A DNA stretch of 64,000 nt, taken from a virus. This document shows, one piece after another, positions 13,214 to 29,390 of this stretch (position 1 is its first letter; every line of letters begins with the position of its first letter). The stretch lies in the IMG/VR virus record IMGVR_UViG_3300032018_000004, positions 1 to 64,000 of that record. The stretch is one strand, 5' to 3'. Below the pieces are notes generated by a model. It saw nothing but the letters and a program-made list of their open reading frames with translations, ran no database searches and was not told the DNA's origin. The position numbers were made by a program, and so were the translations under genes.

Positions 13214-13244
13214 AGTATTCCTCCTATGAAATCCATAATAAAAT

Positions 13245-13293
13245 GAGGGAAGAGATGGATTAAGTCTCTTATCGGATGGCCGTCCTATCCCTC
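13245..13293 (-). ncRNA. Structured cis-RNA motif, copy 1
   Basis: GAGGGA-TAGG-ACGGCCAT-CCGATAAG-AGA-loop-TCT-CT-TCCCTC; same core as 23665-23716 and 29344-29390 with compensatory stems. Confidence 0.7.
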
Positions 13294-13320
13294 AAAACCT
13301 GTCAAATAATAAACACTACA

Positions 13321-13743
13321 TTATACTCTTGCAAGCCCACCTGAGACCTTGCAAGAAAAACTAGCTGTCATAAGCGCTGAACGATCCGCTCCAATTTCCC
13401 ATGAAGTGATATAAACCCCTGACCCTGTGATGCTTGTATAGGCAGGGGTGTAATATGATTGAGAATTTAGCCAAAATTTAATAGATGTTAGAAGAGTCGC
13501 ATTTTCATTTGCGGTCCTCAACACATCCTGACCTGCCGTATCTGCTGGGTCAAACAAACCATTAAAACTAATAGTGCCACCATCTAGCAGTCCCATTTTA
13601 TATTTTTTATAGGTATCGCCAAAAGCCGTTTCTTCGAGCTGATCTGAACTCATCCCACTCAAAGACCACGTGCCCATTAATGAAATCACGCTATCTCCAG
13701 TCCCTACAGTTACCTTTGCTCCGTTACCTCTTTGACTAGCCAT
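13321..13743 (-). CDS. Major tail tube protein
   Basis: 140 aa; ETAFGD...GLLDGGTISFNG...GQ..L...SFSCKVSG pattern of siphovirus tube proteins. Confidence 0.85.
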   Translation of the reverse strand: MASQRGNGAKVTVGTGDSVISLMGTWSLSGMSSDQLEETAFGDTYKKYKMGLLDGGTISFNGLFDPADTAGQDVLRTANENATLLTSIKFWLNSQSYYTPAYTSITGSGVYITSWEIGADRSALMTASFSCKVSGGLARV

Positions 13744-13755
13744 ATTTTATACCTC

Positions 13756-14385
13756 CTAATTATTATTCTTCATTAAAGCTTTATGCAACTTATATGTATT
13801 CCAATCGACGGAAAGGCTACCGATATGTCCAATGCCCAATGTCGTATCTACAAAAATCCTATATCCCGCTTTCTTTAATTTGATACAAAACCCTATATCT
13901 TCACCAATGGGTCTACCATCTTCTCCAACTGTAAATTCGAACCAAGGCATTTCTGTTTTTAGAAAGACCTCTGTTTTGAAAAGGACACACCCTGTTCCCG
14001 TTGCGTCAACTTCGACTAATTCATTATCTAAAATTTCTTCATCCGGGACTGGCAGATATTTTCCCGGTAATCCCCGATAAAGAAGAGGGTCAAAGGGGGG
14101 GTAGCGCCTGTGGATAAGGCCACCAACCACCGGCAAATCATGTTTCAATAGTTTCGTGATAGTCTGAGGGCCGTAAGACTGGTCAGTATCTAACATGATT
14201 AAATGAGTGCAGCCAGAACCTAGTGATTGTTGAACAATACTATTTCTAACTGCCTCAATTGTCATGCCTGGATACTGGGGGCGAAGGTAAACAAAATCAG
14301 GCTTCTCCATTTTAACCCAGCTATCGAGAAAAACGGTATGGACATGATCTGACGTTAATGGCACCCCTATACCCAACTTCATCAA
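13756..14385 (-). CDS. Glycosyltransferase (GT-A fold, GT2-like)
   Basis: RNSIV...HLIMLDTD (DxD), ATGTGCVL, GEDIGFC, terminal GHIG. Confidence 0.85.
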   Translation of the reverse strand: MMKLGIGVPLTSDHVHTVFLDSWVKMEKPDFVYLRPQYPGMTIEAVRNSIVQQSLGSGCTHLIMLDTDQSYGPQTITKLLKHDLPVVGGLIHRRYPPFDPLLYRGLPGKYLPVPDEEILDNELVEVDATGTGCVLFKTEVFLKTEMPWFEFTVGEDGRPIGEDIGFCIKLKKAGYRIFVDTTLGIGHIGSLSVDWNTYKLHKALMKNNN

Positions 14386-15164
14386 TTTATCTCCCCAATA
14401 AATTCCAAAACTTCTTTCTTAGATTTACCTTGCAATTTCAGGTAATATATGGTCTTATTTATTCTCAATCTCTTTTCAAAATCTGGTATATTAAAAGCCG
14501 AATCATGTGCTTGGTGCAACGTCAACAAATCATCAGCCAGATAAAATGGGATATTATTTCTCTTTACCGTTTCTCTAAAGTCATCATCATCGTAGGCAAC
14601 TCCAAGAGAAAACATCTCATCAAAACCACCAATTCTTTCATATTGGACTTTTGAAATTGTGCTACAAAAATGAAACATTGCATTCCTATGTTTTGAATGC
14701 TGATACCACATTTGAGGTTCAAAATAGAAGTTTTCTATATCACCTTCCAATTCATTATAATTCACGACATTTAAACAAGAACATACCACATATTGATCTT
14801 TGTTCTCTGCAAATGCTTTATCTAACCCCTCTAGCACATTCCCATGGTGCATGACTTCTGGGTTAGTTATTACAATAAATTCACCTCTTGCCTTTTCAAC
14901 TCCTAAATTAAACAAAGGGGAAGGGTTATAACAATCAAAGAATTCAGATTCTATACATACCTTATCGGCACAATCATCAAAAAACTTTAATGTTTTTAAC
15001 AACTTCTCGTGTTCTTCTGCGTCTTTTCTGTTCTTCACATCTTCAACAATTACCAATTCATAATCATCACGATCTTTATAGTGATGGATGAACGAAGCAA
15101 TTGTGTTCTTCAACTGTTCCGATCTTTTTAAATATGGCATTACTATTGAGTATTTTTTACTCAC
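14382..15164 (-). CDS. Glycosyltransferase family 2
   Basis: YSIVMPY...ELVIVED, NLGVEKARGEFIV, GGFDE...YDDDDF. Confidence 0.9.
   Translation of the reverse strand: MSKKYSIVMPYLKRSEQLKNTIASFIHHYKDRDDYELVIVEDVKNRKDAEEHEKLLKTLKFFDDCADKVCIESEFFDCYNPSPLFNLGVEKARGEFIVITNPEVMHHGNVLEGLDKAFAENKDQYVVCSCLNVVNYNELEGDIENFYFEPQMWYQHSKHRNAMFHFCSTISKVQYERIGGFDEMFSLGVAYDDDDFRETVKRNNIPFYLADDLLTLHQAHDSAFNIPDFEKRLRINKTIYYLKLQGKSKKEVLEFIGEIN
14962..14989 (-). promoter_or_regulatory. sigma28-type promoter inside GT gene, facing last GT and tail tube gene
   Basis: TAAAGTTT-N12-GCCGATAA. Confidence 0.7.
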
Positions 15165-16011
15165 AAATCTCTCCCATTAATTTAAGCAAAAAAATGTCTT
15201 CGGACTCTTTAATATTATCTTTTGTTACTATGTTTTCATATTTTGATGTGCTATTTGCCCCTGCGTACCAATGAACTCCTATTGTCTTCTCCATAAATTG
15301 GTATTGGATTTTCTCAAATAAAGAATCTGCTTGGCTCCATGCAAAGGGATAAATAGCCACAAATGGAATGTTTAAAATGTTAGATTCGCACCTTTCATTA
15401 AATTCTCCAAATTTCAATTTATTATGATGAAAAAAATGTAAGAATAAGTTACTACCAAGCGATTGATATTCAAGCTCTTTGTTTTTTGACTCCTCCAAAG
15501 CTATCCCAAGCAAATAACTAAAAACCATGCTATTCGGAGTAGACATTAAAAACCCTATGCTATGATACCCCCCAGAAAAACAAAAGCAGGCATTTTCTCC
15601 GGGACCAATAGATTTTATATGCAATTCATCCATTGACTTCAAATATAGAATATCAAAATCACTCCAAACTCCTCCTTCGGTTGAAAGAATATATAGCCTT
15701 AAAATATCTGATTTATGAACTTCAGAACATAATTCACCAATGTTAAAAATAGAAAAATCAAATTCTACGACATCAGTATTTGCAATACCAGATAGATCGG
15801 CAAAGCAGTCTTCCCCTTGGTATTCATAACTTTTTTGCTCCTTACTGCCCCAAGATTCCGCTAAAGAAATCTCATTTGAACAATAAACTTTTATCTTCCA
15901 ATCTGGGTTCAAAATTGAAAATGATTTAACAGTTAAGTACTTCATATAGGAAAGTTTTTTATTTCTTCCCCAATACAAATGAAGAATCTTTGGGATGTTT
16001 AAATCTACCAT
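15157..16011 (-). CDS. DXD sugar-binding glycosyltransferase (GT32/OCH1-like)
   Basis: IPKILHLYWG, KSDILRLYILSTEGGVWSDFD, C-terminal VHWY. Confidence 0.88.
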   Translation of the reverse strand: MVDLNIPKILHLYWGRNKKLSYMKYLTVKSFSILNPDWKIKVYCSNEISLAESWGSKEQKSYEYQGEDCFADLSGIANTDVVEFDFSIFNIGELCSEVHKSDILRLYILSTEGGVWSDFDILYLKSMDELHIKSIGPGENACFCFSGGYHSIGFLMSTPNSMVFSYLLGIALEESKNKELEYQSLGSNLFLHFFHHNKLKFGEFNERCESNILNIPFVAIYPFAWSQADSLFEKIQYQFMEKTIGVHWYAGANSTSKYENIVTKDNIKESEDIFLLKLMGEICE

Positions 16012-16566
16012 TTATTTTTTACATTTTATAAAAAAGAAAGCTCCATCAAAAAGTTCTTCCATAAAACACACGCTACTGTAATACTCTCCTAGTTTTTTCA
16101 TCCACCACTCTTTATTTTCTTGGATGGGGTGTAACTCGATGTCAAGCATTCTATCTGAATGATTTGCAATCCCAAATAATGCTATTAATGATATAGAAGA
16201 AATACATTTCAATGTCTCATCGATATCTTCAATAGATATATGCTCAAGCATATCATTGCAAAGCACATTATCAAATCTCTTTTTTGATTTGCAAAATGTC
16301 ACGATGTCAGAACATTTATGAGGAACGTCACTCAAAAATTTATTGCAACACTCTTTACTAATTTCAACCCCAAACGCCTCAACACCCATATCCAAAGCCA
16401 TCTTCAAATTATGCCCAGAGCCACAACCTATATCAAGCAATGTCCCTTCAAGGCATGACAAATATGCTGAAATTGGCTCATCTTTTTTATCATGCCTTGA
16501 GGACGAATAACTATTATACGCTGGAATTTCTTTATAAATTTTATCGTATATTTCTTTATTATTCAT
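16012..16566 (-). CDS. Class I SAM-dependent methyltransferase
   Basis: LLDIGCGSG motif I, GVEIS, DMLEHI. Confidence 0.9.
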   Translation of the reverse strand: MNNKEIYDKIYKEIPAYNSYSSSRHDKKDEPISAYLSCLEGTLLDIGCGSGHNLKMALDMGVEAFGVEISKECCNKFLSDVPHKCSDIVTFCKSKKRFDNVLCNDMLEHISIEDIDETLKCISSISLIALFGIANHSDRMLDIELHPIQENKEWWMKKLGEYYSSVCFMEELFDGAFFFIKCKK

Positions 16567-17540
16567 ATAAAATTCACATGAGTTAAATCTTTCATCATGG
16601 CTCCTAATATTTCATTATAGTTTTTATAATAGCAAATTTCACATATTTTCCCATTAACAGGAATGTGGCTTCTTGCAATAATATCTTTTAGATCAAATAC
16701 GCTTCCAAGATTCAATTCAACAGGAAGTTTTTTGGGCGCGTCCTTCTTATAGTATTGACTTCCGCAACAACTATATACTTGATAATCCGCACTTATTACT
16801 GGTTTTAAAAAACAAATATAGCAATCACCACCTTGTTCTGGATGTTCTCTGTTTTGATAAATAACTAAGCTATCATCAGCGCCAAAAGCGGTCACAATAT
16901 TTTTAATCCTAACCATATCAATTTCTTCGGGGTTAAATAAATCTGCCACCAATCTAACATGAGTAAAATTATGATCATTCGCAAAATTAATACATCTCAA
17001 AATCCCATAGATATTAGGAGTTTTGGAAACAACATAGCTAAACGCCCAGTCAACATCGGGGGCTGACTTAATTACCTCTTTCAATTTCTCTTCATAATTA
17101 TCCGTGAATGGGCGAAAATCAGCATGGCTAATCCGGCACCAAGTCACCTTATTTAATATTTCTGGTTTTATGTTGTCCAGAGCAAGGCCATTGTCCACAA
17201 GACCAACTTCAATACCTGACTGGATAAAATACTCAATAATTTCATTAATATTAGGATGCAGACAAGGGCTTCCGCCACCAGTAATCGTTACTGCTCTTGT
17301 TCCCAAATCCTTGCAAATGTCAATAATCTCCATCGCCTTAAACAAAGACATTTCAATTTCTCTGTCTTCGTTAGCGCAACTACAGAATGGGCATTTGAGA
17401 TTACATTTGTTTGTCGGGATAAATTGGATATGGATTGGGGGAATTTTTTTACTGTCATTGATGGAACTAATTACCCTTTCGTCACGCAATAACTTCACTG
17501 GTAGTGTATCAGCAGCGGTAAAACTTAACTTGTCAGACAT
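16563..17540 (-). CDS. Radical SAM protein with C-terminal Cys-rich (SPASM/twitch-like) region
   Basis: CNLKCPFC (CxxxCxxC), VTITGGG, C-terminal C...CC...CEIC. Confidence 0.9.
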   Translation of the reverse strand: MSDKLSFTAADTLPVKLLRDERVISSINDSKKIPPIHIQFIPTNKCNLKCPFCSCANEDREIEMSLFKAMEIIDICKDLGTRAVTITGGGSPCLHPNINEIIEYFIQSGIEVGLVDNGLALDNIKPEILNKVTWCRISHADFRPFTDNYEEKLKEVIKSAPDVDWAFSYVVSKTPNIYGILRCINFANDHNFTHVRLVADLFNPEEIDMVRIKNIVTAFGADDSLVIYQNREHPEQGGDCYICFLKPVISADYQVYSCCGSQYYKKDAPKKLPVELNLGSVFDLKDIIARSHIPVNGKICEICYYKNYNEILGAMMKDLTHVNFI

Positions 17541-17737
17541 TTACTCTCCATTTATTTTCTGCACCTTTTAATTGACTTATTCAAGCGTTCTATCGCAGCA
17601 TCTAACAATGCGGAATCAATGTTGGGGTTTTGCATTCTGACAAGTTTAGCATAATATAAAACTTCAAGCATAGCATTAACAGTATCATGACAACAAATAT
17701 TGCATGGTGCTTCAAATTGTGAATCCATCAATAATCC

Positions 17738-17764
17738 TTATCGGAATATGATTAGAAAACTTTA
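17738..17764 (-). promoter_or_regulatory. sigma28-type promoter upstream of the radical SAM/GT cassette
   Basis: TAAAGTTT-N11-TCCGATAA. Confidence 0.7.
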
Positions 17765-18181
17765 AGACTTTTGCAAAATTATCTCATATTCTACTTGATA
17801 TGTCCATTCCTTTACCACGTTGTCCCAAAATGGACCTAGCACGTTATATCTCTCTACTTTTATATCATTCCATCCGGTTACTGTTATATCACAATTATCA
17901 AAATGAGATTTAAGGTATTCAAGAATTGTTCCAGCTTCCGAAGATGAATTTATGATATTAGAGTGAATGTTAAAAGCAACCTTGACAATTTCAAAGTTCG
18001 AAGCGTTTGTTGATTGGGCGTTTAGGTAATAATCTGGTTTGTCATGTATGAAGAAGTAGACAACGTATGGATATACAGCGGCATCTGCTGCTTTAACGAA
18101 GTAGAAACGATCAGCAATGGCTGTTTTAAAATTACTTGCAACTTGTGATCTTGAGTAGATTGCTGTAGAAAGCGCATTCAT
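17762..18181 (-). CDS. Tail completion/terminator protein (DUF3168-like)
   Basis: AIYSR...YPYVVY motif; position after gp10-like gene. Confidence 0.75.
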   Translation of the reverse strand: MNALSTAIYSRSQVASNFKTAIADRFYFVKAADAAVYPYVVYFFIHDKPDYYLNAQSTNASNFEIVKVAFNIHSNIINSSSEAGTILEYLKSHFDNCDITVTGWNDIKVERYNVLGPFWDNVVKEWTYQVEYEIILQKS

Positions 18182-18639
18182 ATCTTATGTTTCTCGACTA
18201 GATTTAAGATTTCATCTTCTGCATCGTAAAGTGCTGGGCGAAGGAATGGGCGCTTATCTGGATTTGTACTTGTCCCTAATTCATGCCACAACCCTTTAGC
18301 TTCTTTGGTCCCTACATGCCCCACAGCCTCTTGCCCACTAGCAGGGGCATCAATCCCCTCAACATCGGATGCTGGACCCAACCCACCAGTTTTGCCGCTA
18401 GAGGTTGCATAGCTTATTGAATCCTTCAATTCTTCTGTGTCTGGGGCGGGAGGGGCAGGAGCTGCTGAAGCTTGGTGCATTCCACCACCAGGTCGCCTTG
18501 ACCGATACATTTCACCCGTTCCCGCAACCATAGAATCTTTAGCTTTTTGAGTCACCAGTTCACAAGCATCCTCAATGATAGCGTTTTCCGCCATTTGAAC
18601 GGCACTTAAAACCGCTACATCATTCCAAACCGCTCTCAT
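18178..18639 (-). CDS. HK97 gp10-like neck protein
   Basis: HQASA...PPAPDT..L..SI, ELGT...RPFLRPA. Confidence 0.88.
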   Translation of the reverse strand: MRAVWNDVAVLSAVQMAENAIIEDACELVTQKAKDSMVAGTGEMYRSRRPGGGMHQASAAPAPPAPDTEELKDSISYATSSGKTGGLGPASDVEGIDAPASGQEAVGHVGTKEAKGLWHELGTSTNPDKRPFLRPALYDAEDEILNLVEKHKI

Positions 18640-19058
18640 TTAAGCAATTTCTCCCCACCCACAACTGCCCCTGCACCTAAAGCTGCCGCCGCAATCCCAG
18701 GAGCTACTAAAGCTGGAGCCAAGGCAGGAATGAACGGGGCAAGCGCCGTGGTCACAGCAGCCTTTACAGCCCCGTCAATTGCTTCTTTCAAAGCTCCAGA
18801 AGCAATTGCTTGCCCCTCAAAAGCTTTAACCCCCTGTTCGTTTAAATCAACTGTATAGTCATTACCTCTCTTTTCAATATGAGCCACAAGAGAAGAAATC
18901 TCCTTCCCGTTATCTACTACCACCTCGCAACAACTCATTTCTCCAGTCGTATGGTTTGTAACAAATGGTTTAACTGAATAATGAGCAGTACCAGCGTTTT
19001 GAAGAGAAGCGCACCCACAAAATGTAAAAAGAAAAACAACAACAAGTATTTTCTTCAT
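18636..19058 (-). CDS. Predicted lipoprotein inserted in the neck module
   Basis: MKK-hydrophobic-GC lipobox-like signal; hydrophobic C-terminus. Confidence 0.6.
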   Translation of the reverse strand: MKKILVVVFLFTFCGCASLQNAGTAHYSVKPFVTNHTTGEMSCCEVVVDNGKEISSLVAHIEKRGNDYTVDLNEQGVKAFEGQAIASGALKEAIDGAVKAAVTTALAPFIPALAPALVAPGIAAAALGAGAVVGGEKLLK

Positions 19059-19375
19059 TCTACTTTCCTCAGTGTTATTTGTAAAAATCTGTTCTTTAAA
19101 GCAACATCTTCTGGTTCTGCAATAATTTCATAAAGCTTCGCACCATTTCTGACGCGATCTTTAGTTGTAATATTCAACCCATCTTTATATTTCATCATCA
19201 GAATGTAAGTAGTTGAAACCCTTGTAGAATCACCAATAAATTTCTCCCACCCTTCAACCCTAGTCAATGTTCCCCTGATATTTTCTACATCAGTCCACAC
19301 AGTTACAAATCCGCCAGCGCCGTCACTAGCATCCGTTCTTCTCTGAATTTGAAAAATCGCTTTTGGACCTGCCAT
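19055..19375 (-). CDS. Head closure protein (SPP1 gp16-like)
   Basis: DGAGG...W, ITTKDRV...YEI motifs. Confidence 0.85.
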   Translation of the reverse strand: MAGPKAIFQIQRRTDASDGAGGFVTVWTDVENIRGTLTRVEGWEKFIGDSTRVSTTYILMMKYKDGLNITTKDRVRNGAKLYEIIAEPEDVALKNRFLQITLRKVE

Positions 19376-20529: not shown

Positions 20530-20536
20530 TTCCTAA

Positions 20537-22239: not shown

Positions 22240-22270
22240 AGAAAAACAGGGAGGGTTTCCCCTCCCCATC
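22240..22270 (-). terminator. Intrinsic terminator
   Basis: GGGGAGGG-GAAA-CCCTCCCT then GTTTTTC, after 22283-22720. Confidence 0.8.
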
Positions 22271-22282
22271 AAATTCTAAAAA

Positions 22283-22720
22283 CTAAGCTTGTCTAGCCCA
22301 AATACCAACCATTTCCTGAATAATCCAACCATCAACGCCATCCGCAACAATCTTGATCATATCACCAAGTTTTGCAGTTGCCTTAGTATTGATAATTGCT
22401 TTATTATCAGCAGCGGTAATACCACAACCCTGGAACTTATCAATAGCAGCAGGAGCAACAGTCACTGCAACGGTACCGTTTGCGCCAGCGTTTACAAAAG
22501 TATACGAAAGGCCAGCAGCGGTAGAGGGAAGAGTGATAGTCTTAGCATCAGTATCGATATATGTCCGATAGCCACAATCGACAGCGGCTACGGTAGTGTC
22601 TGCACTGAGAGTCTGAACTTTTACAGCATCACTATCTTTTGAAACAGGTTTACCAGTTGCAACTACCTTGGTTACAAGTTCACCAGCATTCCAAACACTT
22701 TTAACTTTAGTTACAGGCAT
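22283..22720 (-). CDS. Capsid-associated/decoration protein candidate
   Basis: TITLP...GLSYTFV...GDMIKIV...W pattern; strong GGAGG RBS; downstream of capsid. Confidence 0.55.
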   Translation of the reverse strand: MPVTKVKSVWNAGELVTKVVATGKPVSKDSDAVKVQTLSADTTVAAVDCGYRTYIDTDAKTITLPSTAAGLSYTFVNAGANGTVAVTVAPAAIDKFQGCGITAADNKAIINTKATAKLGDMIKIVADGVDGWIIQEMVGIWARQA

Positions 22721-22768
22721 AATTTATCCTCCATGCGGATTTAACCGCTTATAGGGAGATGGTTCCCC

Positions 22769-23041
22769 CTATTTAATTTTCTTCGGCCTTCTAGCTTTCT
22801 TAACAGCTTTCGCTGATTTGTCAACTGGTGCTGCCGAAATCATTTTGTTATTAGGCGGTTCATCAATTGATTTTGTTTTAACCTCTTCTCTGAATCCCAC
22901 AAAGTCTCCCACGAATTCAACGGTCCCTCTTCCTTTCAGTTCGTTTGCTTTCACTTCAATTATAGAAAGAAGAGAACCTTCTGGATTGCCCATCCATTCA
23001 GATAGAAATTTAACTTTTACAAATTTATTCTGCCTAATCAT
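22769..23041 (-). CDS. Small head-module protein
   Basis: VKVKFL...G; PPNNKMI motif common after HK97 capsids; basic tail. Confidence 0.55.
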   Translation of the reverse strand: MIRQNKFVKVKFLSEWMGNPEGSLLSIIEVKANELKGRGTVEFVGDFVGFREEVKTKSIDEPPNNKMISAAPVDKSAKAVKKARRPKKIK

Positions 23042-23120
23042 ATTTTACCTTTTAAATTTTTAAAACTAGGGCTACTCAGACGGTAGCCCCATCTCCTTCA
23101 AGTCTTGCTTGATGAGTTAA

Positions 23121-23606
23121 TTAAACAATTGCAGTTGGGGAAACTTCCTGAACAACACGGCCCTTGGAAAGCAGACAGGTGATCGATCCACTAACCGGAC
23201 TATTTACAACTTCAGTTGCTTTTACCCGAACATATTTATTAGTACCGCTAAGAGAAGCAGAATTCACTTCTACGGCGTATACCTGATCAGTCCCGGCAGT
23301 GGTGGTAAAGCCAGACGCGGTTGCAGTCTGCATATCACCCCAAGTGTCACCAGTAGTGCATACCCAATAAACAAAGGGAATTGCAGTTGCAGTGCCAGGA
23401 ACAACGGTATCGCAAGACTCTACGGTAATGGTAGCGGTGCCAGTTGCACCAGCGGCCTTCTGAATGATAAAAGTTGCGTTCTCATACTTACCAAGATTGA
23501 TAATGTCCGTTGCTGGAGTACCATTGAACAAGTCGTCATAAGCAGCCGCACTTGCAGCAGGAAGTGCATTTACCACATGAACATTCTGAAAAAATCTTCC
23601 ACCCAT
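23121..23606 (-). CDS. Capsid accessory (cement/decoration) protein candidate
   Basis: Directly after major capsid, GGAGG RBS; DIINLGKYE...YVRVK pattern. Confidence 0.6.
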   Translation of the reverse strand: MGGRFFQNVHVVNALPAASAAAYDDLFNGTPATDIINLGKYENATFIIQKAAGATGTATITVESCDTVVPGTATAIPFVYWVCTTGDTWGDMQTATASGFTTTAGTDQVYAVEVNSASLSGTNKYVRVKATEVVNSPVSGSITCLLSKGRVVQEVSPTAIV

Positions 23607-23664
23607 AATTTATTCCTCCATATATTTTATAAAATTCTTTTTATTATTTACCCCAAATCAAACA

Positions 23665-23716
23665 GTGCGGAAATCAGCCGGGAGAGTTGCTGACTTATCG
23701 GTTCCCCTATCCGCAC
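23665..23716 (-). ncRNA. Structured cis-RNA motif, copy 3
   Basis: GTGCGGA-TAGG-GGAA-CCGATAAG-TCAGC-loop-GCTGA-TT-TCCGCAC, 11 nt after capsid stop. Confidence 0.7.
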
Positions 23717-23727
23717 CTAACTAAAAA

Positions 23728-24975
23728 CTATCGTGTTGCCAACGCCACAAACGGAGAAAGCGTATCGCTGGTAGCTTCAGGAGGTACCAATGCCTGTGGC
23801 ATCCAACTTTGACCCGCAACATAAAATGCAAATCTAAATGCTTGCTGGTCATTTTCAAATTTAATATGCATAGAGGTATCAAAACGCATACCTTCACTAC
23901 CAGCGAGCATACCAAGCAAATACTGCTTCATGTTGACAAGCATGATGTCGCCAACAGTACCAAGAGACTTAGCATGATGGCTGAACACAATTGGCAATCC
24001 AAACAAGGTCGCGAAAGGAACGCCAGCCGCGCCATTTGCAGGCATAAAGACAGGAACTCCGCCTGTGCCGACAGCGAGGCTCATCGATGCAAGCTGGGGA
24101 AGGGTATTCGGATTGACAACCCAAACAGCATTAGAAGGGTCAAGACAACGAGAATACATCTTGATTACATTTTCCCAAAGAATGGTAGTTGAAGCTTGAC
24201 CAGTTTCAGCAGTTACGGAAACTAGAGCAGGAGCATTGAGTACACCCTGAGGCTGACCTGCCCCAGTGCCCTTTAGAATTACCCGATTCATTTCATAGTT
24301 GAAGCCATCAACAAAACCCTCACGAAGAATGTTCTCCATAGACATCGGAGAAAACCGGAGAATTTCATCAGAAGCGTAGGCAAGGCCAGTTACTTTATGA
24401 AGGGTAAGGTTGATATAGCCAAGCTTGACACTCTTGGGAGTAAGAGCTTCTTCCTCGTCAGTCCAATTCCAAGCTACATTGCCATAAACCAAATTCCCGG
24501 ATTTGTCGAAGCCATTGACATAGGGGATTTTAACAACATTGCTCTGCATGGGAATCTGAGTACAACGAGCCATCAGTTCATTCTTCTCACGGGAAGCAAC
24601 AAGCAATTCCTGACGAAATTCTTCAGGAACTACATAGCCGCCAGATTCACCATCAGAAACATTCTGAGACGGGGTGCCAGCAGCCTTGGTACAAACAGAC
24701 TCCCAATCGCCCAACTCTTTAGAAACCTTGCGAAAGCCACTTTGTGCAGCCTTTGCAACATCAAGGGCAAAGTGAGAGAAAGACTTGAATCCAGCCTTCT
24801 TATCCACCAATTTCTCGCCAACAACAATCCGCTTCTCTACTTCACCTACAGCTTCCTTAATCTTTGCATCAATCTCAGCAGCCATAGCCTCACGATCTTC
24901 AGCCATCACGCCCTTAACCGCCTCAACAGTGGTGTCCTTTACAAGGGCTTCAAATTCACTTTTTTCCATTGACAT
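23728..24975 (-). CDS. Major capsid protein (HK97 fold)
   Basis: GGYVVPEEF, GTGAGQPQGVL, TLFGLPI, SPFVALATR. Confidence 0.95.
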   Translation of the reverse strand: MSMEKSEFEALVKDTTVEAVKGVMAEDREAMAAEIDAKIKEAVGEVEKRIVVGEKLVDKKAGFKSFSHFALDVAKAAQSGFRKVSKELGDWESVCTKAAGTPSQNVSDGESGGYVVPEEFRQELLVASREKNELMARCTQIPMQSNVVKIPYVNGFDKSGNLVYGNVAWNWTDEEEALTPKSVKLGYINLTLHKVTGLAYASDEILRFSPMSMENILREGFVDGFNYEMNRVILKGTGAGQPQGVLNAPALVSVTAETGQASTTILWENVIKMYSRCLDPSNAVWVVNPNTLPQLASMSLAVGTGGVPVFMPANGAAGVPFATLFGLPIVFSHHAKSLGTVGDIMLVNMKQYLLGMLAGSEGMRFDTSMHIKFENDQQAFRFAFYVAGQSWMPQALVPPEATSDTLSPFVALATR

Positions 24976-25126
24976 ATTTTATTCCTCCAGATTTTTTGTT
25001 TTTATTTCAATCACTTACGGCCTAATATCTCTTAAATATCTCTAGCCAGATTGAATTTTTTATTGACATCCCCGCATATTTTATGTAATGTTAAATTGGG
25101 GATATATGCCTTTTGTTTTATTTATA

Positions 25127-26533
25127 TTAAAAAATGATGCCTTTTGCCTTTTTGATTCTTTCTTCTACGAGATCACTAATTGATTGAGTTTTAGATTTTG
25201 CAGAGAGAACTGATTCGATTACCATCTTTTTAACATCTTCTGGTGTAAAATCCAGATCAATCGTTTGTTTTTTAATTTCAAAATCAATTACATCTTTTTC
25301 TTTCACTTTCTCTGTATATACCTTATCGGCATTTTCTTCAGGAAACTTTAATGTTTTTTCAATCTTTTCGTCAACATACGCACGAATTGATTTAATTTCT
25401 TCAAGAATTTCTTGGAATTTATCGATATCACTTTTGGTGGCAGTTTCTGTTTCTTTAGAATCGATTATCTTTTCTTCTGTATTATCTTCCTGATTATCAA
25501 TAACCATGGTTTCTTTTGTTTCTTCCTGAACGTCCAATGATTTCTTCGTTGGCTTGTCGCAACCTTCATATTGGGGGCAATTTTCTCCATCACAACTACC
25601 GTCTTCCCCATCACAAGGCATAGCATCCTTTTCAGATTTTTCTTCCGCTGCATCTTCTACAACTTCAGTCATTTCTGTTTTTTCTTCGGTTGATTCTGTC
25701 TTTTCTTCGGATGATTCGTCAGAAAAGCTTCCCCAATCTTTCTCCATTGCTTTCCGCAATTTACTCTCTTCGTCTTTAAGGGCGAGAGAAATTTTTTCTT
25801 CCATGGCATCTCTCATCTTGGACATATTGCCTTCGCATTTTTGGGAAACGCTGAGGCTCCCATCCTCATTTTTGACCAATGGCATATAGCCCTCGATATC
25901 AATATGACCAATTACTTTTGCTTTTTCTTCGGTGGGTTCGGAAGTAAGCTCGATGTATTCTTTTGAGTCTTTTAGTTTTTCAACCATTGATTTTACTTCA
26001 GCAGATTTGATTTCCCCCCTCTCTAGGGAGGCGACCATTGATTTAGCCCCGTTAATGATGGTCGCGGAGGGATTCGCTGGTATTGTTACACATGATAATT
26101 CGAGAAGTTCACACTCTTCATATACAGTACAAGGGACTTTCCCATTTTTATCAACATATTTCTGGCTCTTTTCATTGTCATATATTCTAACTGGTCGAAA
26201 TCCAACTGAAAAACTTGACATGAAACCATTTTTGTAAAGAGAATAAATCTCATTTCCCGCTTCCGTATCTGCGAACTTGATTTTGAATTTCAAACCATTA
26301 GAGTCAGTCTTTTGCCAAATAGATTTCGCAACTGGGAGTGACCAGTAATCATGATTTACCAAAATTACTGGATTCATTCTATAATTCTTCAATCCTTCTT
26401 CCGTCCAAGCAGAAGCAAGAATCATTTCATTATGCCTATCGACCTCATTGGTAGATGCATAGCAAACAATTGAGTTTTCATCGTCCAACATTTCGCTTTT
26501 TTGTGCATACGCGAACATTTTATTTTCAGCCAT
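25127..26533 (-). CDS. HK97-family prohead protease with long acidic scaffold-like C-terminus
   Basis: NPVILVNHD, SFSVGF, ELSCVTIPANPSA. Confidence 0.93.
   Translation of the reverse strand: MAENKMFAYAQKSEMLDDENSIVCYASTNEVDRHNEMILASAWTEEGLKNYRMNPVILVNHDYWSLPVAKSIWQKTDSNGLKFKIKFADTEAGNEIYSLYKNGFMSSFSVGFRPVRIYDNEKSQKYVDKNGKVPCTVYEECELLELSCVTIPANPSATIINGAKSMVASLERGEIKSAEVKSMVEKLKDSKEYIELTSEPTEEKAKVIGHIDIEGYMPLVKNEDGSLSVSQKCEGNMSKMRDAMEEKISLALKDEESKLRKAMEKDWGSFSDESSEEKTESTEEKTEMTEVVEDAAEEKSEKDAMPCDGEDGSCDGENCPQYEGCDKPTKKSLDVQEETKETMVIDNQEDNTEEKIIDSKETETATKSDIDKFQEILEEIKSIRAYVDEKIEKTLKFPEENADKVYTEKVKEKDVIDFEIKKQTIDLDFTPEDVKKMVIESVLSAKSKTQSISDLVEERIKKAKGIIF
25323..25350 (-). promoter_or_regulatory. 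sigma28-type promoter inside protease gene, facing major capsid gene
   Basis: TAAAGTTT-N12-GCCGATAA ~350 bp upstream of capsid start. Confidence 0.75.
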
Positions 26534-26554
26534 CTAAATTCCTCCTATCTTACA

Positions 26555-26773
26555 TTAAAATAATTGCATTGAATCAAATATGTAGTTTGATCTAATTTGT
26601 TTTATTACATTTCCTTGTTCAATGCCACAGCAATATTCTTCTCCGTTTTGACATACAGATTTTATTTGTTTGTCTTTATAAATAGGGCAAAAATCATGAT
26701 TTACAGGCTCAAATTGCCCATGTGTGTTCATCTTTATTCTTACTAGGTGGTAAATTTGGGTTTTATTTGCCAT
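26555..26773 (-). CDS. Hypothetical protein
   Basis: Coupled to neighbouring ORF in the late operon. Confidence 0.5.
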   Translation of the reverse strand: MANKTQIYHLVRIKMNTHGQFEPVNHDFCPIYKDKQIKSVCQNGEEYCCGIEQGNVIKQIRSNYIFDSMQLF

Positions 26774-27081
26774 TAACTTCTTCTACATAGAAAATTCATC
26801 AAACGTCTTGAGATAGATATGATATTATCAAAATATCTCCAATCCCCTTTTAATTCTGGGACCACTAAATTTTCATCTTCTTTAATTTCTACTAATTTAA
26901 ATTTCTTAAATAGTTTTACCAATTCTCCATCTTTAATTTCTGGAGTGTCTGGATAGTATTCACATGAAATAGTCAACAAGCTATCAACTTCGCATTCCAT
27001 ATTGAATTTCTTACAACGCTTTGGTAACCCAAGAATTTTAATTAAATCAGTTACTTCTTTGCTATGCCCATTAAAAGCCAT
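26773..27081 (-). CDS. Hypothetical protein
   Basis: Tightly packed between neighbours, same strand. Confidence 0.55.
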   Translation of the reverse strand: MAFNGHSKEVTDLIKILGLPKRCKKFNMECEVDSLLTISCEYYPDTPEIKDGELVKLFKKFKLVEIKEDENLVVPELKGDWRYFDNIISISRRLMNFLCRRS

Positions 27082-27082
27082 T

Positions 27083-27859
27083 TCAGTTCTCCCTCACCAT
27101 TCTCATTTTCTCCAAAGTGGTTGTTTCCATGTCGAATCTTCCTGGCTTAAATGAATCAAGAAGCACTAACCCCTTCCAGTATTCAATTATCCGACCATGA
27201 ATATAATCCTCTTCATCCTCAAAGAAACAACCAACAACCAGCACCTGTTGAAGATCATCCTGACCGTGACGCTTAAAATTTTCTTCTGCTTTACAATGCG
27301 TATGCGCGAATACAACACTACCAAACATTACTTGACTAACTTTCTTTGTTATATTAACACCAGAGATTTCTTTTGCCTTATTGAAAGGAATGTGGGTGAA
27401 GGCAATATCATTTATGTAGTAGTATTCACGATATGGAATAAATTTAATTCCACGCTCTCTCAATTTTAAGTCCTGATCTACGCTAACCAAACCCTCAAAT
27501 GTTGGATCGCTCTCAAGGTATCTGTCGAGGCGATTCTCGTGATTTCCATTCAAATAAATAATTTCTGGCCGATAAATTTTTTCTTTATTTTTCCTTTGTC
27601 TATCTTGCAACTCATTCAATGGGTAAAAAATAATATCAAGTGCTTTATTTCCAGTATCGATTTCTTTCTTGTACCTTTTCCCTTCCATTTTCATACGCTT
27701 ATCTCTATCCCAACCAGACAAGCACTGAAAAGTTAAAAAATCCCCCATAAAAACAATATAATCCGGCTTTTTTTCGATGATATATTGACCTAGATATAAA
27801 AACCTATCCAAATCATCATCCGCTGAAACGTGACAGTCGCCTATCGGCAAAATTAACAA
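27083..27859 (-). CDS. Calcineurin-like metallophosphoesterase
   Basis: GDCH, GDF, GNHE, FTH, AHTH motifs. Confidence 0.9.
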   Translation of the reverse strand: MLILPIGDCHVSADDDLDRFLYLGQYIIEKKPDYIVFMGDFLTFQCLSGWDRDKRMKMEGKRYKKEIDTGNKALDIIFYPLNELQDRQRKNKEKIYRPEIIYLNGNHENRLDRYLESDPTFEGLVSVDQDLKLRERGIKFIPYREYYYINDIAFTHIPFNKAKEISGVNITKKVSQVMFGSVVFAHTHCKAEENFKRHGQDDLQQVLVVGCFFEDEEDYIHGRIIEYWKGLVLLDSFKPGRFDMETTTLEKMRMVREN

Positions 27860-28311
27860 GTCTTTCTCTCCCTATTAAGATTTAAATTGCTGAATCCAAC
27901 CAATTGCTCTCTTGCAATTCTACTCGCATCATTCTTCCTGTAATTATTCCAAGCAACCCACCCTCCAATTCTTAAAGCCCTATAAATTACAGCTCTCTGC
28001 CATTTAGATACACCAAGGACATCCATTGCTTCTAACAGTAATTGGTCACTTGCTTTCTGCGACCCCAAAAGATTCGTTTTATAGAGATGATCATGTAGTA
28101 CAGCGGCCTTGCCATATTGCCCCCAAGGAGAGAGGATGTTTTGGACTATTCCTGGTATGCTTGCGCCATCAGTGATGAACCCAATCGGCACCTCTATAAT
28201 CTGTTTAGAGAGCATTCCCCCGACACGGTAGCGGAAATGCTCTCTAAGATAGAAGGTTTCAGATTCTCCGTCAACTGGGGTGAGGAGGAGTTGGGTTGTA
28301 AAACTAGACAT
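27853..28311 (-). CDS. DUF1353-like protein
   Basis: VPIGFITDGASIP...AAVLHDHLY...ALRIGG. Confidence 0.85.
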   Translation of the reverse strand: MSSFTTQLLLTPVDGESETFYLREHFRYRVGGMLSKQIIEVPIGFITDGASIPGIVQNILSPWGQYGKAAVLHDHLYKTNLLGSQKASDQLLLEAMDVLGVSKWQRAVIYRALRIGGWVAWNNYRKNDASRIAREQLVGFSNLNLNRERKTC

Positions 28312-28314
28312 TAA

Positions 28315-29307
28315 TTAACATCCTTTATGATCATGGCAGTCTTCGCATGTTATCAGTTGATGTGACATGTTATCTGCCTCGCTTATGTATTTAGATACCA
28401 TCATATTGTGATGGATAATTAATTCAGATTGCTGTTTCTCTTTTCCGCATTTATCGCAGAAATTATACCCGAATTCGTCTGTCTGCAATTCAAGCAGTGC
28501 CTGACGATTTACGGGTTGGTTGCAACGAGCTTGTTTTGCTACGTTCCTTAAAGATTTAGGGGTGTTCACTGTTCCAAATATATCGCACTCCTGCTTGCAC
28601 TTTTCAGAACAATAGAGTCTATTTTCTCCTCTTAAAACACCACTTAATGCACCTATTCTCCATCTAATTTCCGCATTCGTTACGGGAAAATATTCCTTAC
28701 AATGAGTGCACCTACACCATAATTCGTTATCCCCTACTAATATTGGCTCTTCTTCAATGGTTAATCTTACTGCATATGTAGAATAATTTGCAATTTTATT
28801 TCTATGGTTTCTGTCTCTTTCTATTATAATTTCCCTATTCTTCTTCCGGTATTCCTTGGTCTTTACTTCTATTATTTTTTTATTGTTATTATAATATTTG
28901 TTTGATTTATCTATAATTGCTTCAGAATTTCTTTGATAATACTCTTTTCTCCGCGCTACAAATTCTTTATCGTGTTTATTAATTAAATATTTTTTATTTA
29001 GTTTCTTTTTTATTATTTCCCTATTTTTAACCCGATATTTATTAAAACATTCTTTGCAAATATAGCAAAGCCCATCTTTACTTCTATTGTCTTTATAAAA
29101 TCTATTTATATTTTCAACTACATTGCAGCGACTGCATCTCTTCAATCCATCTGGTAAAATTTCTTTTGGTGGATGCTTTCTTATTCTGGCATTACGGCAC
29201 TGTTTACATTCATTTCTCCTTCCATCTTTTGAATCTTTCCTTTTATAAAATTCATTTAACCATTTTTCAATTTTACACTTTCTACAAACTTTTACTTTCG
29301 TTTTCAT
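28315..29307 (-). CDS. Free-standing HNH-type endonuclease with CxxC repeats
   Basis: KVCRKC..EK...F...DG...CK.C repeats; C-terminal CDKCG...HH...DN...TCEDCH. Confidence 0.8.
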   Translation of the reverse strand: MKTKVKVCRKCKIEKWLNEFYKRKDSKDGRRNECKQCRNARIRKHPPKEILPDGLKRCSRCNVVENINRFYKDNRSKDGLCYICKECFNKYRVKNREIIKKKLNKKYLINKHDKEFVARRKEYYQRNSEAIIDKSNKYYNNNKKIIEVKTKEYRKKNREIIIERDRNHRNKIANYSTYAVRLTIEEEPILVGDNELWCRCTHCKEYFPVTNAEIRWRIGALSGVLRGENRLYCSEKCKQECDIFGTVNTPKSLRNVAKQARCNQPVNRQALLELQTDEFGYNFCDKCGKEKQQSELIIHHNMMVSKYISEADNMSHQLITCEDCHDHKGC

Positions 29308-29343
29308 TATATACCTCTGTAGTATATTCTGATTAATTAAATG

Positions 29344-29390
29344 GTGGAAATTGGTTCAGAATACCAACTTGTCGGACGCCTCCTATCCAC
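29344..29390 (-). ncRNA. Structured cis-RNA motif, copy 2
   Basis: GTGGA-TAGG-AGGCGT-CCGACAAG-TTGGT-ATTCTGA-ACCAA-TT-TCCAC. Confidence 0.7.

What the first reader, a model, noticed from the sequence alone, without database searches (positions are those of the whole stretch)
13230..29390. Three-copy covarying RNA motif after portal, capsid and tail-tube genes, linked to endonuclease genes by a pseudoknot
Seen, minus strand: 13245-13293 GAGGGA TAGG ACGGCCAT CCGATAAG AGA[CTTAATCCA]TCT CT TCCCTC; 29344-29390 GTGGA TAGG AGGCGT CCGACAAG TTGGT[ATTCTGA]ACCAA TT TCCAC; 23665-23716 GTGCGGA TAGG GGAA CCGATAAG TCAGC[AACTCTCCCG]GCTGA TT TCCGCAC. The junction core (GGAUAGG..CCGAYAAG..YUUCC) is conserved while the outer and third stems change sequence yet keep pairing, as expected for a selected RNA fold. 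Each copy lies just past the stop of a major structural gene. Two lead into free-standing HNH-type genes, and in both the third loop is complementary to a segment just before the RBS (AAUCCA/UGGAUU at 13230-13235; UAUUCUGA/UCAGAAUA at 29325-29332), again covarying. Inference: a cis element travelling with mobile endonucleases (translational control, ribozyme-like processing or protein-binding site); the post-capsid copy may be an orphan. I do not recognise the family.
Basis: partly seen in the sequence, partly recalled or inferred. Interest (0 to 1): 0.88.

Follow-up and report, generated by a model that had tools for sequence, protein, structure and literature searches.

The report
Folded leader RNA of phage homing-endonuclease cassettes
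The three repeats are copies of a small three-armed RNA fold that sits in front of selfish DNA-cutting-enzyme genes in many uncultured phages; it is a divergent form of a catalogued RNA family of untested function and most likely limits how much nuclease is translated.

Summary
Three minus-strand copies (13245-13293, 23665-23716, 29344-29390) share a three-way junction (UA / GAYAAG / YU) with covarying stems. A core-pattern scan of viral contigs gave 116 loci. Together with the window's three, 51 distinct sites have the full fold.

It is not a new family. Rfam's int-alpA model (RF02996) hits the same sites in related contigs and passes its cut-off in 18 of 48 records. The window's own copies do not reach it even at E=10.

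An ORF starts 25-57 nt downstream in 46 of 51 sites. Of the 48 ORFs called, 31 look like homing endonucleases: HNH, GIY-YIG, EndoVII-like or Vsr-like.

Loop 3 pairs with two competing sites, a decoy just after P1 and the Shine-Dalgarno region. Both are present in 38 of 48 leaders, against a permuted mean of 9.5.

The post-capsid copy is a solo remnant. A relative, L039, has an HNH gene behind the same leader, and 15 other relatives have no leader there.

My best reading is a cis-acting translational throttle for the nuclease gene. The mechanism is inferred, not shown.

This scan has already noted the same leader on other DNA, in at least 30 genomes.

The parts
13245..13293 (-). Leader copy 1: three-way junction. 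P1 is GAGGGA/UCCCUC and can extend by one pair to 13244-13294. P2 is GGA-CGGCCA-UCC. J2/3 is GAUAAG. P3 is AGA/UCU with the loop CUUAAUCCAUC.
   Evidence: 36.1 bits, E 8e-8 with model R1, not in the seed
13230..13236 (-). Copy 1, site 1 (decoy): AUGGAUU, complementary to loop 3.
   Evidence: duplex -6.8 kcal/mol
13220..13225 (-). Copy 1: Shine-Dalgarno AGGAGG of the HNH gene. It pairs only weakly with loop 3.
   Evidence: -3.7 kcal/mol, interrupted
12296..13213 (-). Free-standing homing endonuclease gene, 305 aa, NUMOD3 plus HNH.
   Evidence: NUMOD3 E 2.8e-14; HNH_2 and HNH weak; HNH 32.7 bits summed in this frame
13321..13743 (-). Upstream host gene: tail tube protein (weak Pfam match).
   Evidence: Phage_TTP_11 E 5.4e-6, below the curated cut-off; 47% identical to the gene before the same cassette in L032
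23665..23716 (-). Leader copy 2, a solo copy with no endonuclease gene behind it. P1 is GUGCGGA/UCCGCAC. P2 is GG-GGAA-CC. P3 is UCAGC/GCUGA with the loop AACUCUCCCG.
   Evidence: 39.0 bits; for its solo status
23651..23655 (-). Copy 2, site 1 remnant: UGGGG. It corresponds to ACGGGAU in relative L039.
   Evidence: -5.8 kcal/mol
23121..23606 (-). 161-aa conserved hypothetical protein (P0001) with its own SD GGAGG at 23615-23619. It is a resident gene that follows the capsid gene in relatives, not a nuclease.
   Evidence: phrog_5707, unknown function; 204 homologues
23728..24975 (-). Upstream host gene: HK97-type major capsid protein.
   Evidence: Phage_capsid E 4.5e-43
29344..29390 (-). Leader copy 3. 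P1 is GUGGA/UCCAC. P2 is GGA-GGCG-UCC. J2/3 is GACAAG. P3 is UUGGU/ACCAA with the loop AUUCUGA.
   Evidence: 57.4 bits; in the seed; the minimum-energy fold gives exactly this junction, z -2.71
29325..29332 (-). Copy 3, site 1 (decoy): UCAGAAUA, complementary to the whole of loop 3.
   Evidence: -6.9 kcal/mol
29309..29327 (-). Copy 3, hairpin P4. Its loop holds site 2 (CAGAG, 29315-29319) and the SD (AGAGG). The start codon is at 29305-29307.
   Evidence: -4.3 kcal/mol to loop 3
29402..29429 (-). Perfect sigma-70-type promoter match, TTGACA-16-TATAAT (12 of 12). It ends 11 nt before P1 of copy 3 and overlaps the end of the portal gene.
28315..29307 (-). Free-standing endonuclease gene, 330 aa. 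It has N-terminal zinc-ribbon repeats and a C-terminal motif of the CxxC...HHN...N...CxxCH kind.
   Evidence: PHROGs endonuclease VII / HNH endonuclease, E 3e-11 to 1e-7, N-terminal part only; motif read by eye; no Pfam family at E 0.01
29412..30800 (-). Upstream host gene: portal protein.
   Evidence: Phage_portal E 6.5e-55

Best explanation
Each copy is the 5' leader of a homing-endonuclease gene cassette. It belongs to the same RNA family as Rfam int-alpA (RF02996), in a divergent AT-rich form. The RNA folds into a three-way junction with a conserved core (UA, GAYAAG, YU, plus flanking G-C pairs) that presents the loop of P3. That loop can pair with either of two nearly identical downstream segments. 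Site 1 is a decoy 6-12 nt after P1 and gives a pseudoknot. Site 2 overlaps the Shine-Dalgarno region, which usually sits in the loop of a small hairpin P4, and gives a kissing complex. Pairing with site 2 hides the ribosome-binding site; pairing with site 1 leaves it free. The partition between the two states sets a low rate of nuclease translation, and the state may depend on conditions. This would let the selfish gene sit behind heavily expressed structural genes without harming the phage. Copy 2 is a leader left behind after its HNH gene was lost. Shown here: the fold, its covariation, the two complementary sites, the gene context and the solo status of copy 2. Inferred: that the pairing controls translation, which state is on, and what the conserved junction core does.
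For: Structure. Model R1 matched 53 sites (49 distinct rows). In these, 97.1% of cells form standard pairs against 69.1% in shuffles, and 167 cells carry changes on both sides against 43.5. None of 500 shuffles reached either value, and all slid registers give 34-59% paired. Context. An ORF on the same strand starts 25-57 nt after P1 in 46 of 51 sites. Pfam finds nuclease or homing-endonuclease modules in 20 of the 48 ORFs called. BLAST links 7 more to these, and PHROGs or BLAST add 4 EndoVII/HNH-like proteins, giving 31 of 48. At most 3 of 39 upstream ORFs are nucleases. Two sites. Loop 3 has two non-overlapping complementary sites in 38 of 48 leaders. With loops permuted among leaders the mean is 9.5 and the maximum 19 in 500 runs; with reversed loops it is 12. 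Site 1 starts 4-17 nt (mostly 6-12) after P1. Site 2 ends 4-13 nt before the called start codon in most leaders. Mean duplex energies are balanced, -8.6 against -8.0 kcal/mol. Site 2 lies in a hairpin loop in 22 of 38 leaders by a strict test. Orthologues covary. Window copy 1, L039:5084-5133 and L032 share the insertion site or cassette, while P1, loop 3 and its targets change together. Precedent. T-even homing endonucleases are held down by RNA structures at the ribosome-binding site (PMC2988022, passages read).
Against: There is no experimental or RNA-seq evidence: no listed sequencing run that holds this DNA is RNA. In the window's two nuclease-leading copies the SD pairing is weak (-3.7 and -4.3 kcal/mol) compared with the decoy (-6.8 and -6.9), so here the decoy state should dominate. 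A pure throttle does not explain why the junction core is so strongly conserved across phages of very different GC content; that pattern is more typical of a ligand site, a protein site or a catalytic core. Four of the 48 downstream genes are clearly not nucleases (a helicase, a glycosyltransferase, an RNAP alpha-CTD-like protein and a DUF6874 protein) and 13 are unknown. Copies 1 and 2 do not fold better than shuffled sequence. The set was collected with a fixed core pattern, so core conservation within it is partly by construction. The structure counts were made on an alignment fitted to the model.
Confidence: 0.55

Rival explanations
1. A constitutive structural element, not a switch. The junction plus the site 1 pseudoknot forms a compact 5' knot that protects the nuclease mRNA from 5'-end-dependent decay, or insulates it from ribosomes and RNases arriving from the upstream gene. 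On this reading, the likeness of site 2 to site 1 is secondary.
For: Sigma-70-type -10 boxes (TAnAAT) end 3-13 nt before P1 in many loci. The best promoter match reaches at least 9 of 12 in 14 of 51 sites, against 1.8% of 2,040 control windows. Copy 3 has a 12-of-12 promoter ending 11 nt before P1. Cassette transcripts would therefore begin at the base of P1, with a paired 5' end. Rfam's own model includes the 3' tail that carries site 1. In the window the decoy duplex is the stronger one.
Against: This does not explain why site 2 tracks loop 3 in positions that are not SD-like, as in L057, L089 and L090. Nor does it explain why 38 of 48 leaders keep two sites against 9.5 expected.
Confidence: 0.15
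2. A sensor. The conserved junction binds a universal ligand or host factor (a metabolite, an ion, a ribosomal protein or the 30S subunit), and binding decides whether loop 3 takes the decoy or the SD. This would make it a riboswitch-like or protein-dependent switch.
For: The junction strands are invariant next to freely covarying stems. The two mutually exclusive partners have balanced energies. The motif occurs in phages from 42% to 79% GC at the motif itself, so any trans factor would have to be universal.
Against: There is no match to any riboswitch or ribosomal-protein leader in Rfam. No candidate ligand is suggested by the gene context. Part of the core conservation comes from how the set was collected.
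Confidence: 0.12
3. A small self-cleaving ribozyme or RNase processing site that cuts the nuclease message free from the structural-gene transcript.
For: It is a three-way junction with a conserved core plus a tertiary loop contact, as in small ribozymes. It sits just past the stops of heavily transcribed genes. A structured RNA ahead of a homing-endonuclease ORF has a precedent in the GIR1 lariat-capping ribozyme (recalled, not checked).
Against: No ribozyme family in Rfam matches. The junction strand lengths (2, 6, 2) differ from the hammerhead core as I recall it. Many loci seem to have their own promoter right before P1, which makes cleavage unnecessary there.
Confidence: 0.08
4. A trans-acting small RNA, which is how Rfam files int-alpA ('Gene; sRNA').
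For: The Rfam type label. U-rich sequence follows P1 in the three window copies.
Against: A same-strand ORF follows at a fixed short distance in 46 of 51 sites, and the loop matches that ORF's own SD. The scan calls no terminator at the copies. The sequence after P1 is not U-rich in the GC-rich loci.
Confidence: 0.04
5. A DNA-level signal, such as a promoter or a protein-binding palindrome. In this phage J2/3 (CCGATAAG) is identical to the -10 box of seven sigma-28-like promoter matches.
For: Searches show the shared octamer. The P2 tips are often palindromic.
Against: The three copies lack the TAAAGTTT -35 box at any workable spacing. The covarying stems and the long-range loop pairing are strand-specific and follow the gene's orientation. 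The motif occurs in phages whose promoters must differ.
Confidence: 0.03

Closest known systems
Rfam RF02996, int-alpA RNA motif (filed as 'Gene; sRNA'; no function on record in what I could read)
   Same: The architecture and junction are the same: P1, UA, a short G-C-rich P2, a GA(A/Y)AAG strand, P3 with a loop rich in C and U, a YU strand, P1', then a 3' tail whose AGGG pairs with the loop (consensus shown). The Rfam model hits the very sites collected here: L018 at 46.7 bits and L010 at 36.3 bits, against a cut-off of 35.8. It passes the cut-off in 18 of 48 records that carry the motif, and reaches E<=1 in 25 of 48. One model, R1, scores both those sites and the window's copies.
   Different: The window's three copies do not reach RF02996 even at E=10. 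They are AT-rich, have GAYAAG where the model has GAAAAG, and have a fixed GGA/UCC end to P1. The Rfam model stops at site 1, so it lacks hairpin P4 and the SD site. The family's name points to integrase and alpA neighbours; that is my reading of the name, since the describing supplement was closed. Here the neighbours are homing endonucleases.
RBS-sequestering RNA hairpins of T-even phage homing endonucleases (I-TevI, I-TevII, I-TevIII, segB, Aeh1 mobE)
   Same: Both give RNA structure at the ribosome-binding site of a selfish nuclease gene that sits inside host operons and keep its translation low (PMC2988022, passages read). This is what the leader most likely works like.
   Different: The T-even elements are simple local hairpins with no shared fold between genes, and a late promoter inside the hairpin bypasses the block. 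Here a conserved junction acts through a loop, there is a competing decoy, and the promoter-like boxes lie upstream of P1, so cassette transcripts carry the whole leader.
GIR1 lariat-capping ribozyme ahead of the I-DirI homing endonuclease ORF
   Same: A junction-plus-pseudoknot RNA placed directly before a homing-endonuclease ORF that shapes the 5' end of its mRNA.
   Different: It is about four times larger, eukaryotic and intron-borne, and its catalysis has been demonstrated. No sequence or Rfam relation was found.
Translational riboswitches and leaders that use a pseudoknot with the SD (for example SAM-II or preQ1-II type; recalled)
   Same: A loop-to-SD pairing decides ribosome access.
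   Different: No ligand is known or suggested here. There is a second, decoy partner, and no Rfam match.

Membership tests
Rfam RF02996 int-alpA | Scores at or above the family's gathering threshold (35.8 bits) with the Rfam covariance model. | tested here: not met
   The window's copies give no RF02996 match at E<=10 in a 301-base search, in loci L001-L003 or in the whole record. Sites with the same core in other contigs do pass: L018 at 46.7 bits and L010 at 36.3 bits, and 18 of 48 records.
Rfam RF02996 int-alpA | Three-way junction with junction strands UA / GAnAAG / YU and a short G-C P2. | tested here: met
   compared with the Rfam consensus and structure line printed.
Rfam RF02996 int-alpA | A 3' tail complementary to the P3 loop (AGGG against CCU in the consensus). 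| tested here: met
   Site 1 is at 13230-13236, 23651-23655 and 29325-29332.
Rfam RF02996 int-alpA | Homology shown by one model covering both Rfam-positive sites and the window's copies. | tested here: met
   R1 scores L010 at 60.7, L018 at 38.4, L054 at 39.5, L068 at 39.8 and L092 at 35.6 bits, and the window copies at 57.4, 39.0 and 36.1 bits. L010 and copy 3 were seeds.
Rfam RF02996 int-alpA | Neighbourhood of integrase or alpA genes (inferred from the family's name). | tested here: not met
   The downstream genes are HNH, GIY-YIG, EndoVII-like or Vsr-like nucleases in 31 of 48 cases. No integrase or AlpA family appeared. The original description could not be read because supplements are closed.
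T-even-type RBS-sequestering hairpins of homing endonuclease genes | The SD is enclosed in a stable local hairpin stem. | tested here: not met
   The SD usually lies in the loop of a weak hairpin P4, 22 of 38 by a strict test, with energies of 0 to -8 kcal/mol. Any occlusion would come from the distant loop 3.
T-even-type RBS-sequestering hairpins of homing endonuclease genes | A promoter inside the structure, so that late transcripts escape the block. | tested here: not met
   The promoter-like -10 boxes end 3-13 nt upstream of P1. None was seen inside the leader except the -10-only octamer CCGATAAG, which has no -35 box.
Small self-cleaving ribozymes (hammerhead, twister, twister-sister, pistol, hatchet, hairpin, HDV-like) | A match to a family model, and site-specific self-cleavage. 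| tested here: not met
   No Rfam ribozyme family matches at E<=10 or at gathering scores. Cleavage itself cannot be tested with these tools.

The most novel reading that the evidence does not exclude
The leader is a self-contained RNA switch that has become the common regulatory front end of mobile nuclease cassettes built from unrelated enzymes (HNH, GIY-YIG, EndoVII-like, Vsr-like). Its conserved junction senses a universal signal, or the way the transcript was made (read-through from the host gene against the cassette's own promoter). It then flips loop 3 between a decoy and the ribosome-binding site. On this reading the RNA, not the enzyme, is the conserved and mobile module, able to persist alone, as in copy 2, and to be reused before other genes.
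Probability: 0.25. Interest if true: 0.8.

Novelty: new variant of a known kind. Interest (0 to 1): 0.6.

Why it matters
Homing endonucleases must be expressed without damaging the phage that carries them. So far their control is known case by case, as individual hairpins in T-even phages. A single conserved RNA fold shared by cassettes with unrelated nucleases, in phages ranging from 42% to 79% GC at the motif, would be a general and portable control device for selfish genes.

It would also give a concrete function and test system to an orphan Rfam family. In addition, the work shows that the Rfam model misses AT-rich members, and that a leader can outlive its nuclease gene and end up heading a resident structural-module gene.

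Tried and rejected
**Rfam.** The whole window at gathering scores gave only a tRNA. Copy 1 at E<=10 gave only chance miRNA and lncRNA matches. RF02996 on the whole record found nothing at E<=10.

**Cultured relatives.** Megablast of 12000-32000 against cultured phages gave no match. tblastn of the capsid gave at best 37% identity, to a Streptomyces phage, so the host stays unknown.

**RNA evidence.** No RNA holder was listed. The six listed runs are sediment metagenome DNA kept as contigs.

**Folding energy.** It is not informative for copies 1 and 2.

**Promoter reading of J2/3.** I rejected this because the -35 box is absent at the three copies, but the shared octamer remains unexplained.

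**Terminator reading.** The scan calls no terminator at the copies, and the sequence after P1 is not U-rich in GC-rich loci.

**Alignment.** The first MAFFT alignment of all 51 sites (A3) misaligned the 3' strands and was not used for the model. A gap-free subset was used instead (A4).

**Rows dropped or doubtful.**
- Of the 119 loci with the core pattern, 58 sites passed my fold filter (P1 of at least 5 bp, P3 of at least 3 bp). Seven of these were exact duplicates, leaving 51. The other pattern hits look like chance matches inside genes.
- Three of the 51 had no callable downstream ORF because the contig ended or none was found.
- Two ORF calls, L042 and L075, start only 5 and 8 nt after P1 and are doubtful.
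- The cut ORF of L108 has no Pfam hit and is counted as nuclease-like only through the BLAST cluster.

**Literature.**
- 'int-alpA' is held by 2 papers. One uses it as a gene order. The other only lists it among predicted sRNAs.
- 'homing endonuclease' + 'RNA motif' + 'pseudoknot' + 'phage' gave 4 papers, none relevant judged from title and abstract.
- 'homing endonuclease' + 'kissing loop' + 'Shine-Dalgarno' gave 2 reviews on recoding.
- The main text of PMC5737381 does not contain 'alpA', 'HNH' or 'homing endonuclease'. Its supplements, which may describe int-alpA and its gene context, were closed.
- So my statement that the link to homing endonucleases is not in print rests on these searches only.

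Full report
**1. The observation**

The three sequences are in the window as written, on the minus strand. The core GATAGG-N(2-14)-CCGAYAAG occurs three times, against none in 100 shuffles. It occurs nowhere else in the 80,974-base virus record that holds the window.

The genes ahead of the copies are a tail tube (weak Pfam match), an HK97-type capsid and a portal. Their stop codons lie 26, 10 and 21 nt before the widest P1 helix.

**2. A family, not a local repeat**

I filtered these, together with the window's three loci, for a P1 helix of at least 5 bp that closes the motif and a P3 hairpin of at least 3 bp. This left 58 sites, 51 of them distinct. The other pattern hits lie in coding sequence and look like chance matches.

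I built a covariance model, R1, from 11 sites that align without gaps; only copy 3 comes from the window. With filters off, R1 finds the window's other two copies at 39.0 and 36.1 bits. It finds no fourth copy, and the next hit scores 14.1 bits.

Over the window plus 99 loci, R1 finds 53 sites. On their alignment (49 distinct rows):
- 97.1% of cells form standard pairs, against 69.1% in shuffles.
- 167 cells carry changes on both sides, against 43.5 in shuffles.
- None of 500 shuffles reaches either value, and every slid register gives 34-59% paired.
- The two outer P1 pairs and all five modelled P3 pairs show four or more pair types.
- The inner GGA/UCC of P1 and the two G-C pairs of P2 do not vary, so they say nothing either way.

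Two caveats apply. The alignment was fitted to the model, and the fixed core comes partly from how I collected the set.

**3. It is catalogued**

A note from this scan's earlier work pointed to Rfam int-alpA, and I tested that lead. RF02996 does not hit the window's copies, either in a 301-base search at E<=10, in loci L001-L003 or in the whole record.

It does hit the same sites in other contigs: L018 at 46.7 bits, L010 at 36.3, L054 at 35.7, L068 at 33.3 and L092 at 30.2, against a cut-off of 35.8. It passes its cut-off in 18 of the 48 records that carry my sites, and reaches E<=1 in 25 of 48.

The printed Rfam consensus has the same plan: P1, UA, P2, GAAAAG, P3, CU, P1', and then a tail ending in AGGG that can pair with the CCU of the loop. 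R1 scores both the Rfam-positive sites and the window's copies.

I therefore file the window's copies as divergent, AT-rich relatives of int-alpA that the current Rfam model misses. I found no functional study of the family, and the supplement that presumably describes it was closed.

**4. What lies behind it**

An ORF on the same strand starts 25-57 nt after P1 in 46 of 51 sites. Two further ORF calls are doubtful, and three sites have none.

Of the 48 downstream ORFs:
- **Pfam, 20 ORFs.** These carry nuclease or homing-endonuclease modules: HNH, HNH_2, HNH_3, HNH_5, GIY-YIG, NUMOD1/3/4, and a Vsr-like DUF559.
- **BLAST, 7 more.** These Pfam-negative proteins join the same cluster.
- **PHROGs or BLAST, 4 more.** These are EndoVII/HNH-type proteins: L003, L007 and L027 by PHROGs and L089 by BLAST to L003/L007.
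- **Clearly something else, 4 ORFs.** These are a helicase, a glycosyltransferase, an RNAP alpha-CTD-like protein and a DUF6874 protein.
- **Unknown, 13 ORFs.**

That makes 31 of 48 nuclease-like. By the same Pfam method, the 39 upstream ORFs are capsids, terminases, portals, tail tubes, a ribonucleotide reductase and others, and at most 3 have a nuclease domain.

In the window:
- The gene behind copy 1 is NUMOD3 plus HNH.
- The gene behind copy 3 has no Pfam hit. It matches endonuclease VII / HNH PHROGs in its N-terminal zinc ribbons, and by eye it ends in an HNH-type motif.
- Two other HNH-like frames in the genome, at about 35.8 and 36.4 kb on the plus strand, have no leader.

**5. The orphan**

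Behind copy 2 lies a 161-aa protein with no nuclease signature. It has 204 uniform-length homologues. In 15 related viral loci that encode a homologue of this protein, R1 finds no leader before it at E<=0.1. In most of the 13 loci I read, the gene follows a capsid-type ORF after a short spacer that sometimes holds a terminator-like hairpin.

One relative, L039, has a capsid 46% identical to the window's. There the order is capsid, leader, a 314-aa HNH gene (Pfam HNH, E 1.8e-6), and then the homologue of the 161-aa gene (54% identical).

The L039 leader resembles copy 2 in P1 and loop 3. The window's SD GGAGGAATAAA...ATG matches the L039 homologue's own ribosome-binding site, not the nuclease's. 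So copy 2 is a leader that kept site 1 and lost its site 2, its SD and its nuclease gene. The converse is possible, that L039 gained the gene, but either way the leader stands alone here.

**6. Two partners for loop 3**

- Allowing for two stem-end bases on each side, 38 of 48 leaders have two non-overlapping sites of about 5 bp or more, 7 have one, and 3 have none.
- With loops permuted among leaders, the mean with two sites is 9.5 and the maximum 19 in 500 runs. With reversed loops it is 12.
- Site 1 starts 4-17 nt (mostly 6-12) after P1.
- Site 2 ends 4-13 nt before the called start codon in most leaders.
- The two sites use the same loop bases, so they compete.
- Mean duplex energies are -8.6 kcal/mol for the proximal site and -8.0 for the SD site.
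- Site 2 lies in the loop of a small hairpin in 22 of 38 leaders by a strict test, and partly so in several more. The SD contact would therefore be a loop-loop kiss.

In the window, copy 3 shows the full design: site 1 at 29325-29332, and hairpin P4 at 29309-29327 with CAGAG in its loop. Here the decoy is stronger than the SD contact: -6.8 against -3.7 kcal/mol for copy 1 and -6.9 against -4.3 for copy 3.

Orthologous cassettes covary. Window copy 1 and L039:5084-5133 keep the same loop and target while P1 and P2 differ. L032 has the same insertion site after a 47%-identical tail tube and a 34%-identical HNH gene, but a different P3 loop, and both of its targets have changed to match.

**7. 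Promoters**

A perfect TTGACA-16-TATAAT lies at 29429-29402 (minus strand) and ends 11 nt before P1 of copy 3. Across the family, the best sigma-70-type match in the 55 nt before P1 reaches at least 9 of 12 in 14 of 51 sites, against 1.8% of 2,040 control windows. The -10 box typically ends 3-8 nt before P1.

Cassette transcripts would therefore start at the base of P1 and carry the whole leader. This differs from the T-even design, in which a late promoter inside the hairpin lets late transcripts escape the block (PMC2988022, passages read).

**8. Mechanism**

The best-supported reading is a cis-acting control of translation. Loop 3, held out by the junction, is shared between a decoy and the SD, and the partition sets how much nuclease is made. 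The following points are inferred, not shown:
- that the pairing affects ribosome binding;
- which state prevails in vivo;
- whether anything shifts the balance, such as a ligand, a protein, ribosomes ending the upstream gene, or the order of folding during transcription;
- why the junction core is so conserved.

The rivals are a constitutive 5' protective knot, a sensor, a ribozyme or processing site, a trans-acting sRNA and a DNA-level signal. They are listed separately with their evidence. None is excluded by experiment.

**9. Novelty and score**

The RNA fold is already in Rfam, and this scan has flagged the same leader in at least 30 other genomes. It is therefore not categorically new.

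What I did not find in print, within the searches, is:
- the link to homing endonucleases of several unrelated families;
- the two-partner design;
- the solo remnant.

The window adds a divergent AT-rich variant outside the reach of the Rfam model, and a clean natural comparison (window against L039) that shows a leader without its nuclease. I rate it a new variant of a known kind, of solid interest to people who work on mobile elements and regulatory RNA.

Noticed in passing
window 14962-14989(-), 17738-17764(-), 25323-25350(-), 34275-34302(-), 35133-35160(-), 57405-57432(-), 62262-62289(+): There are seven matches to TAAAGTTT-N(10-15)-CCGATAA, against 0 expected. As I recall it, this is the consensus of FliA/SigD (sigma-28) promoters. 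A near-match (TAAGTTTT in the -35 box) lies at about 35205-35239(+), seen. Some matches lie inside genes ahead of structural genes. No Sigma70_r2 gene was found in the record, so the phage may borrow a host flagellar-type sigma factor.
   Followed up: partly
window 13268-13275(-) and 23694-23701(-), compared with the promoter boxes above: The J2/3 strand plus the P2 end of leader copies 1 and 2 (CCGATAAG) is the same octamer as the -10 box of the sigma-28-like promoter matches. The pattern CCGAYAAG has 12 matches in the window against 2.06 expected. The leaders lack the -35 box. Whether this is coincidence or function is unresolved.
   Followed up: partly
P2 hairpins of the 51 sites (for example window 13276-13287(-), GGACGGCCAUCC): The tip of P2 is very often self-complementary (GGCC, GCGC, CGCG). 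This holds for 10 of 18 distinct even-length P2 segments, against about 1.1 expected, and 4 are perfect palindromes. Odd-length segments carry CTGCAG, CTCGAG, TCTAGA, TGTACA, ACCGGT or AGCT. This could allow loop-loop dimerisation of the RNA, or it could reflect a constraint at the DNA level.
   Followed up: partly
L039:6563-7591(-) and L039:5084-5133(-): A related phage contig carries orthologues of window copies 2 and 1. Its post-capsid leader still heads a 314-aa HNH gene, which the window lacks.
   Followed up: yes
window 23121-23606(-): A 161-aa beta-rich protein follows the capsid gene. It has 204 homologues of nearly constant length, 44-72% identical among the 120 listed, all unnamed. 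It matches phrog_5707 of unknown function. From its position, it is likely a conserved head-module protein.
   Followed up: partly
window 31159-31231(-): A tRNA gene (65.9 bits) lies between a small ORF next to the portal gene and the 578-aa ORF at 31235-32971.
   Followed up: no
window 35817-35915(+) and 36394-36516(+): Two further HNH-like frames (18.9 and 32.5 bits) lie next to a divergent promoter region. Neither has a leader copy.
   Followed up: no
L024:2344-2415(+): A strong RAGATH-18 RNA match (69.5 bits, cut-off 44.9) lies about 2 kb from a leader copy in the same small viral contig. A paper seen only in a search listing reports RAGATH-18-derived RNAs as guides of IS607 TnpB nucleases (PMC11061315).
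   Followed up: no
downstream ORFs of L023, L028, L031 and L110: Four leaders head a ~170-aa protein family (phrog_6737, unknown function). This may be an unrecognised nuclease or another kind of cargo.
   Followed up: no
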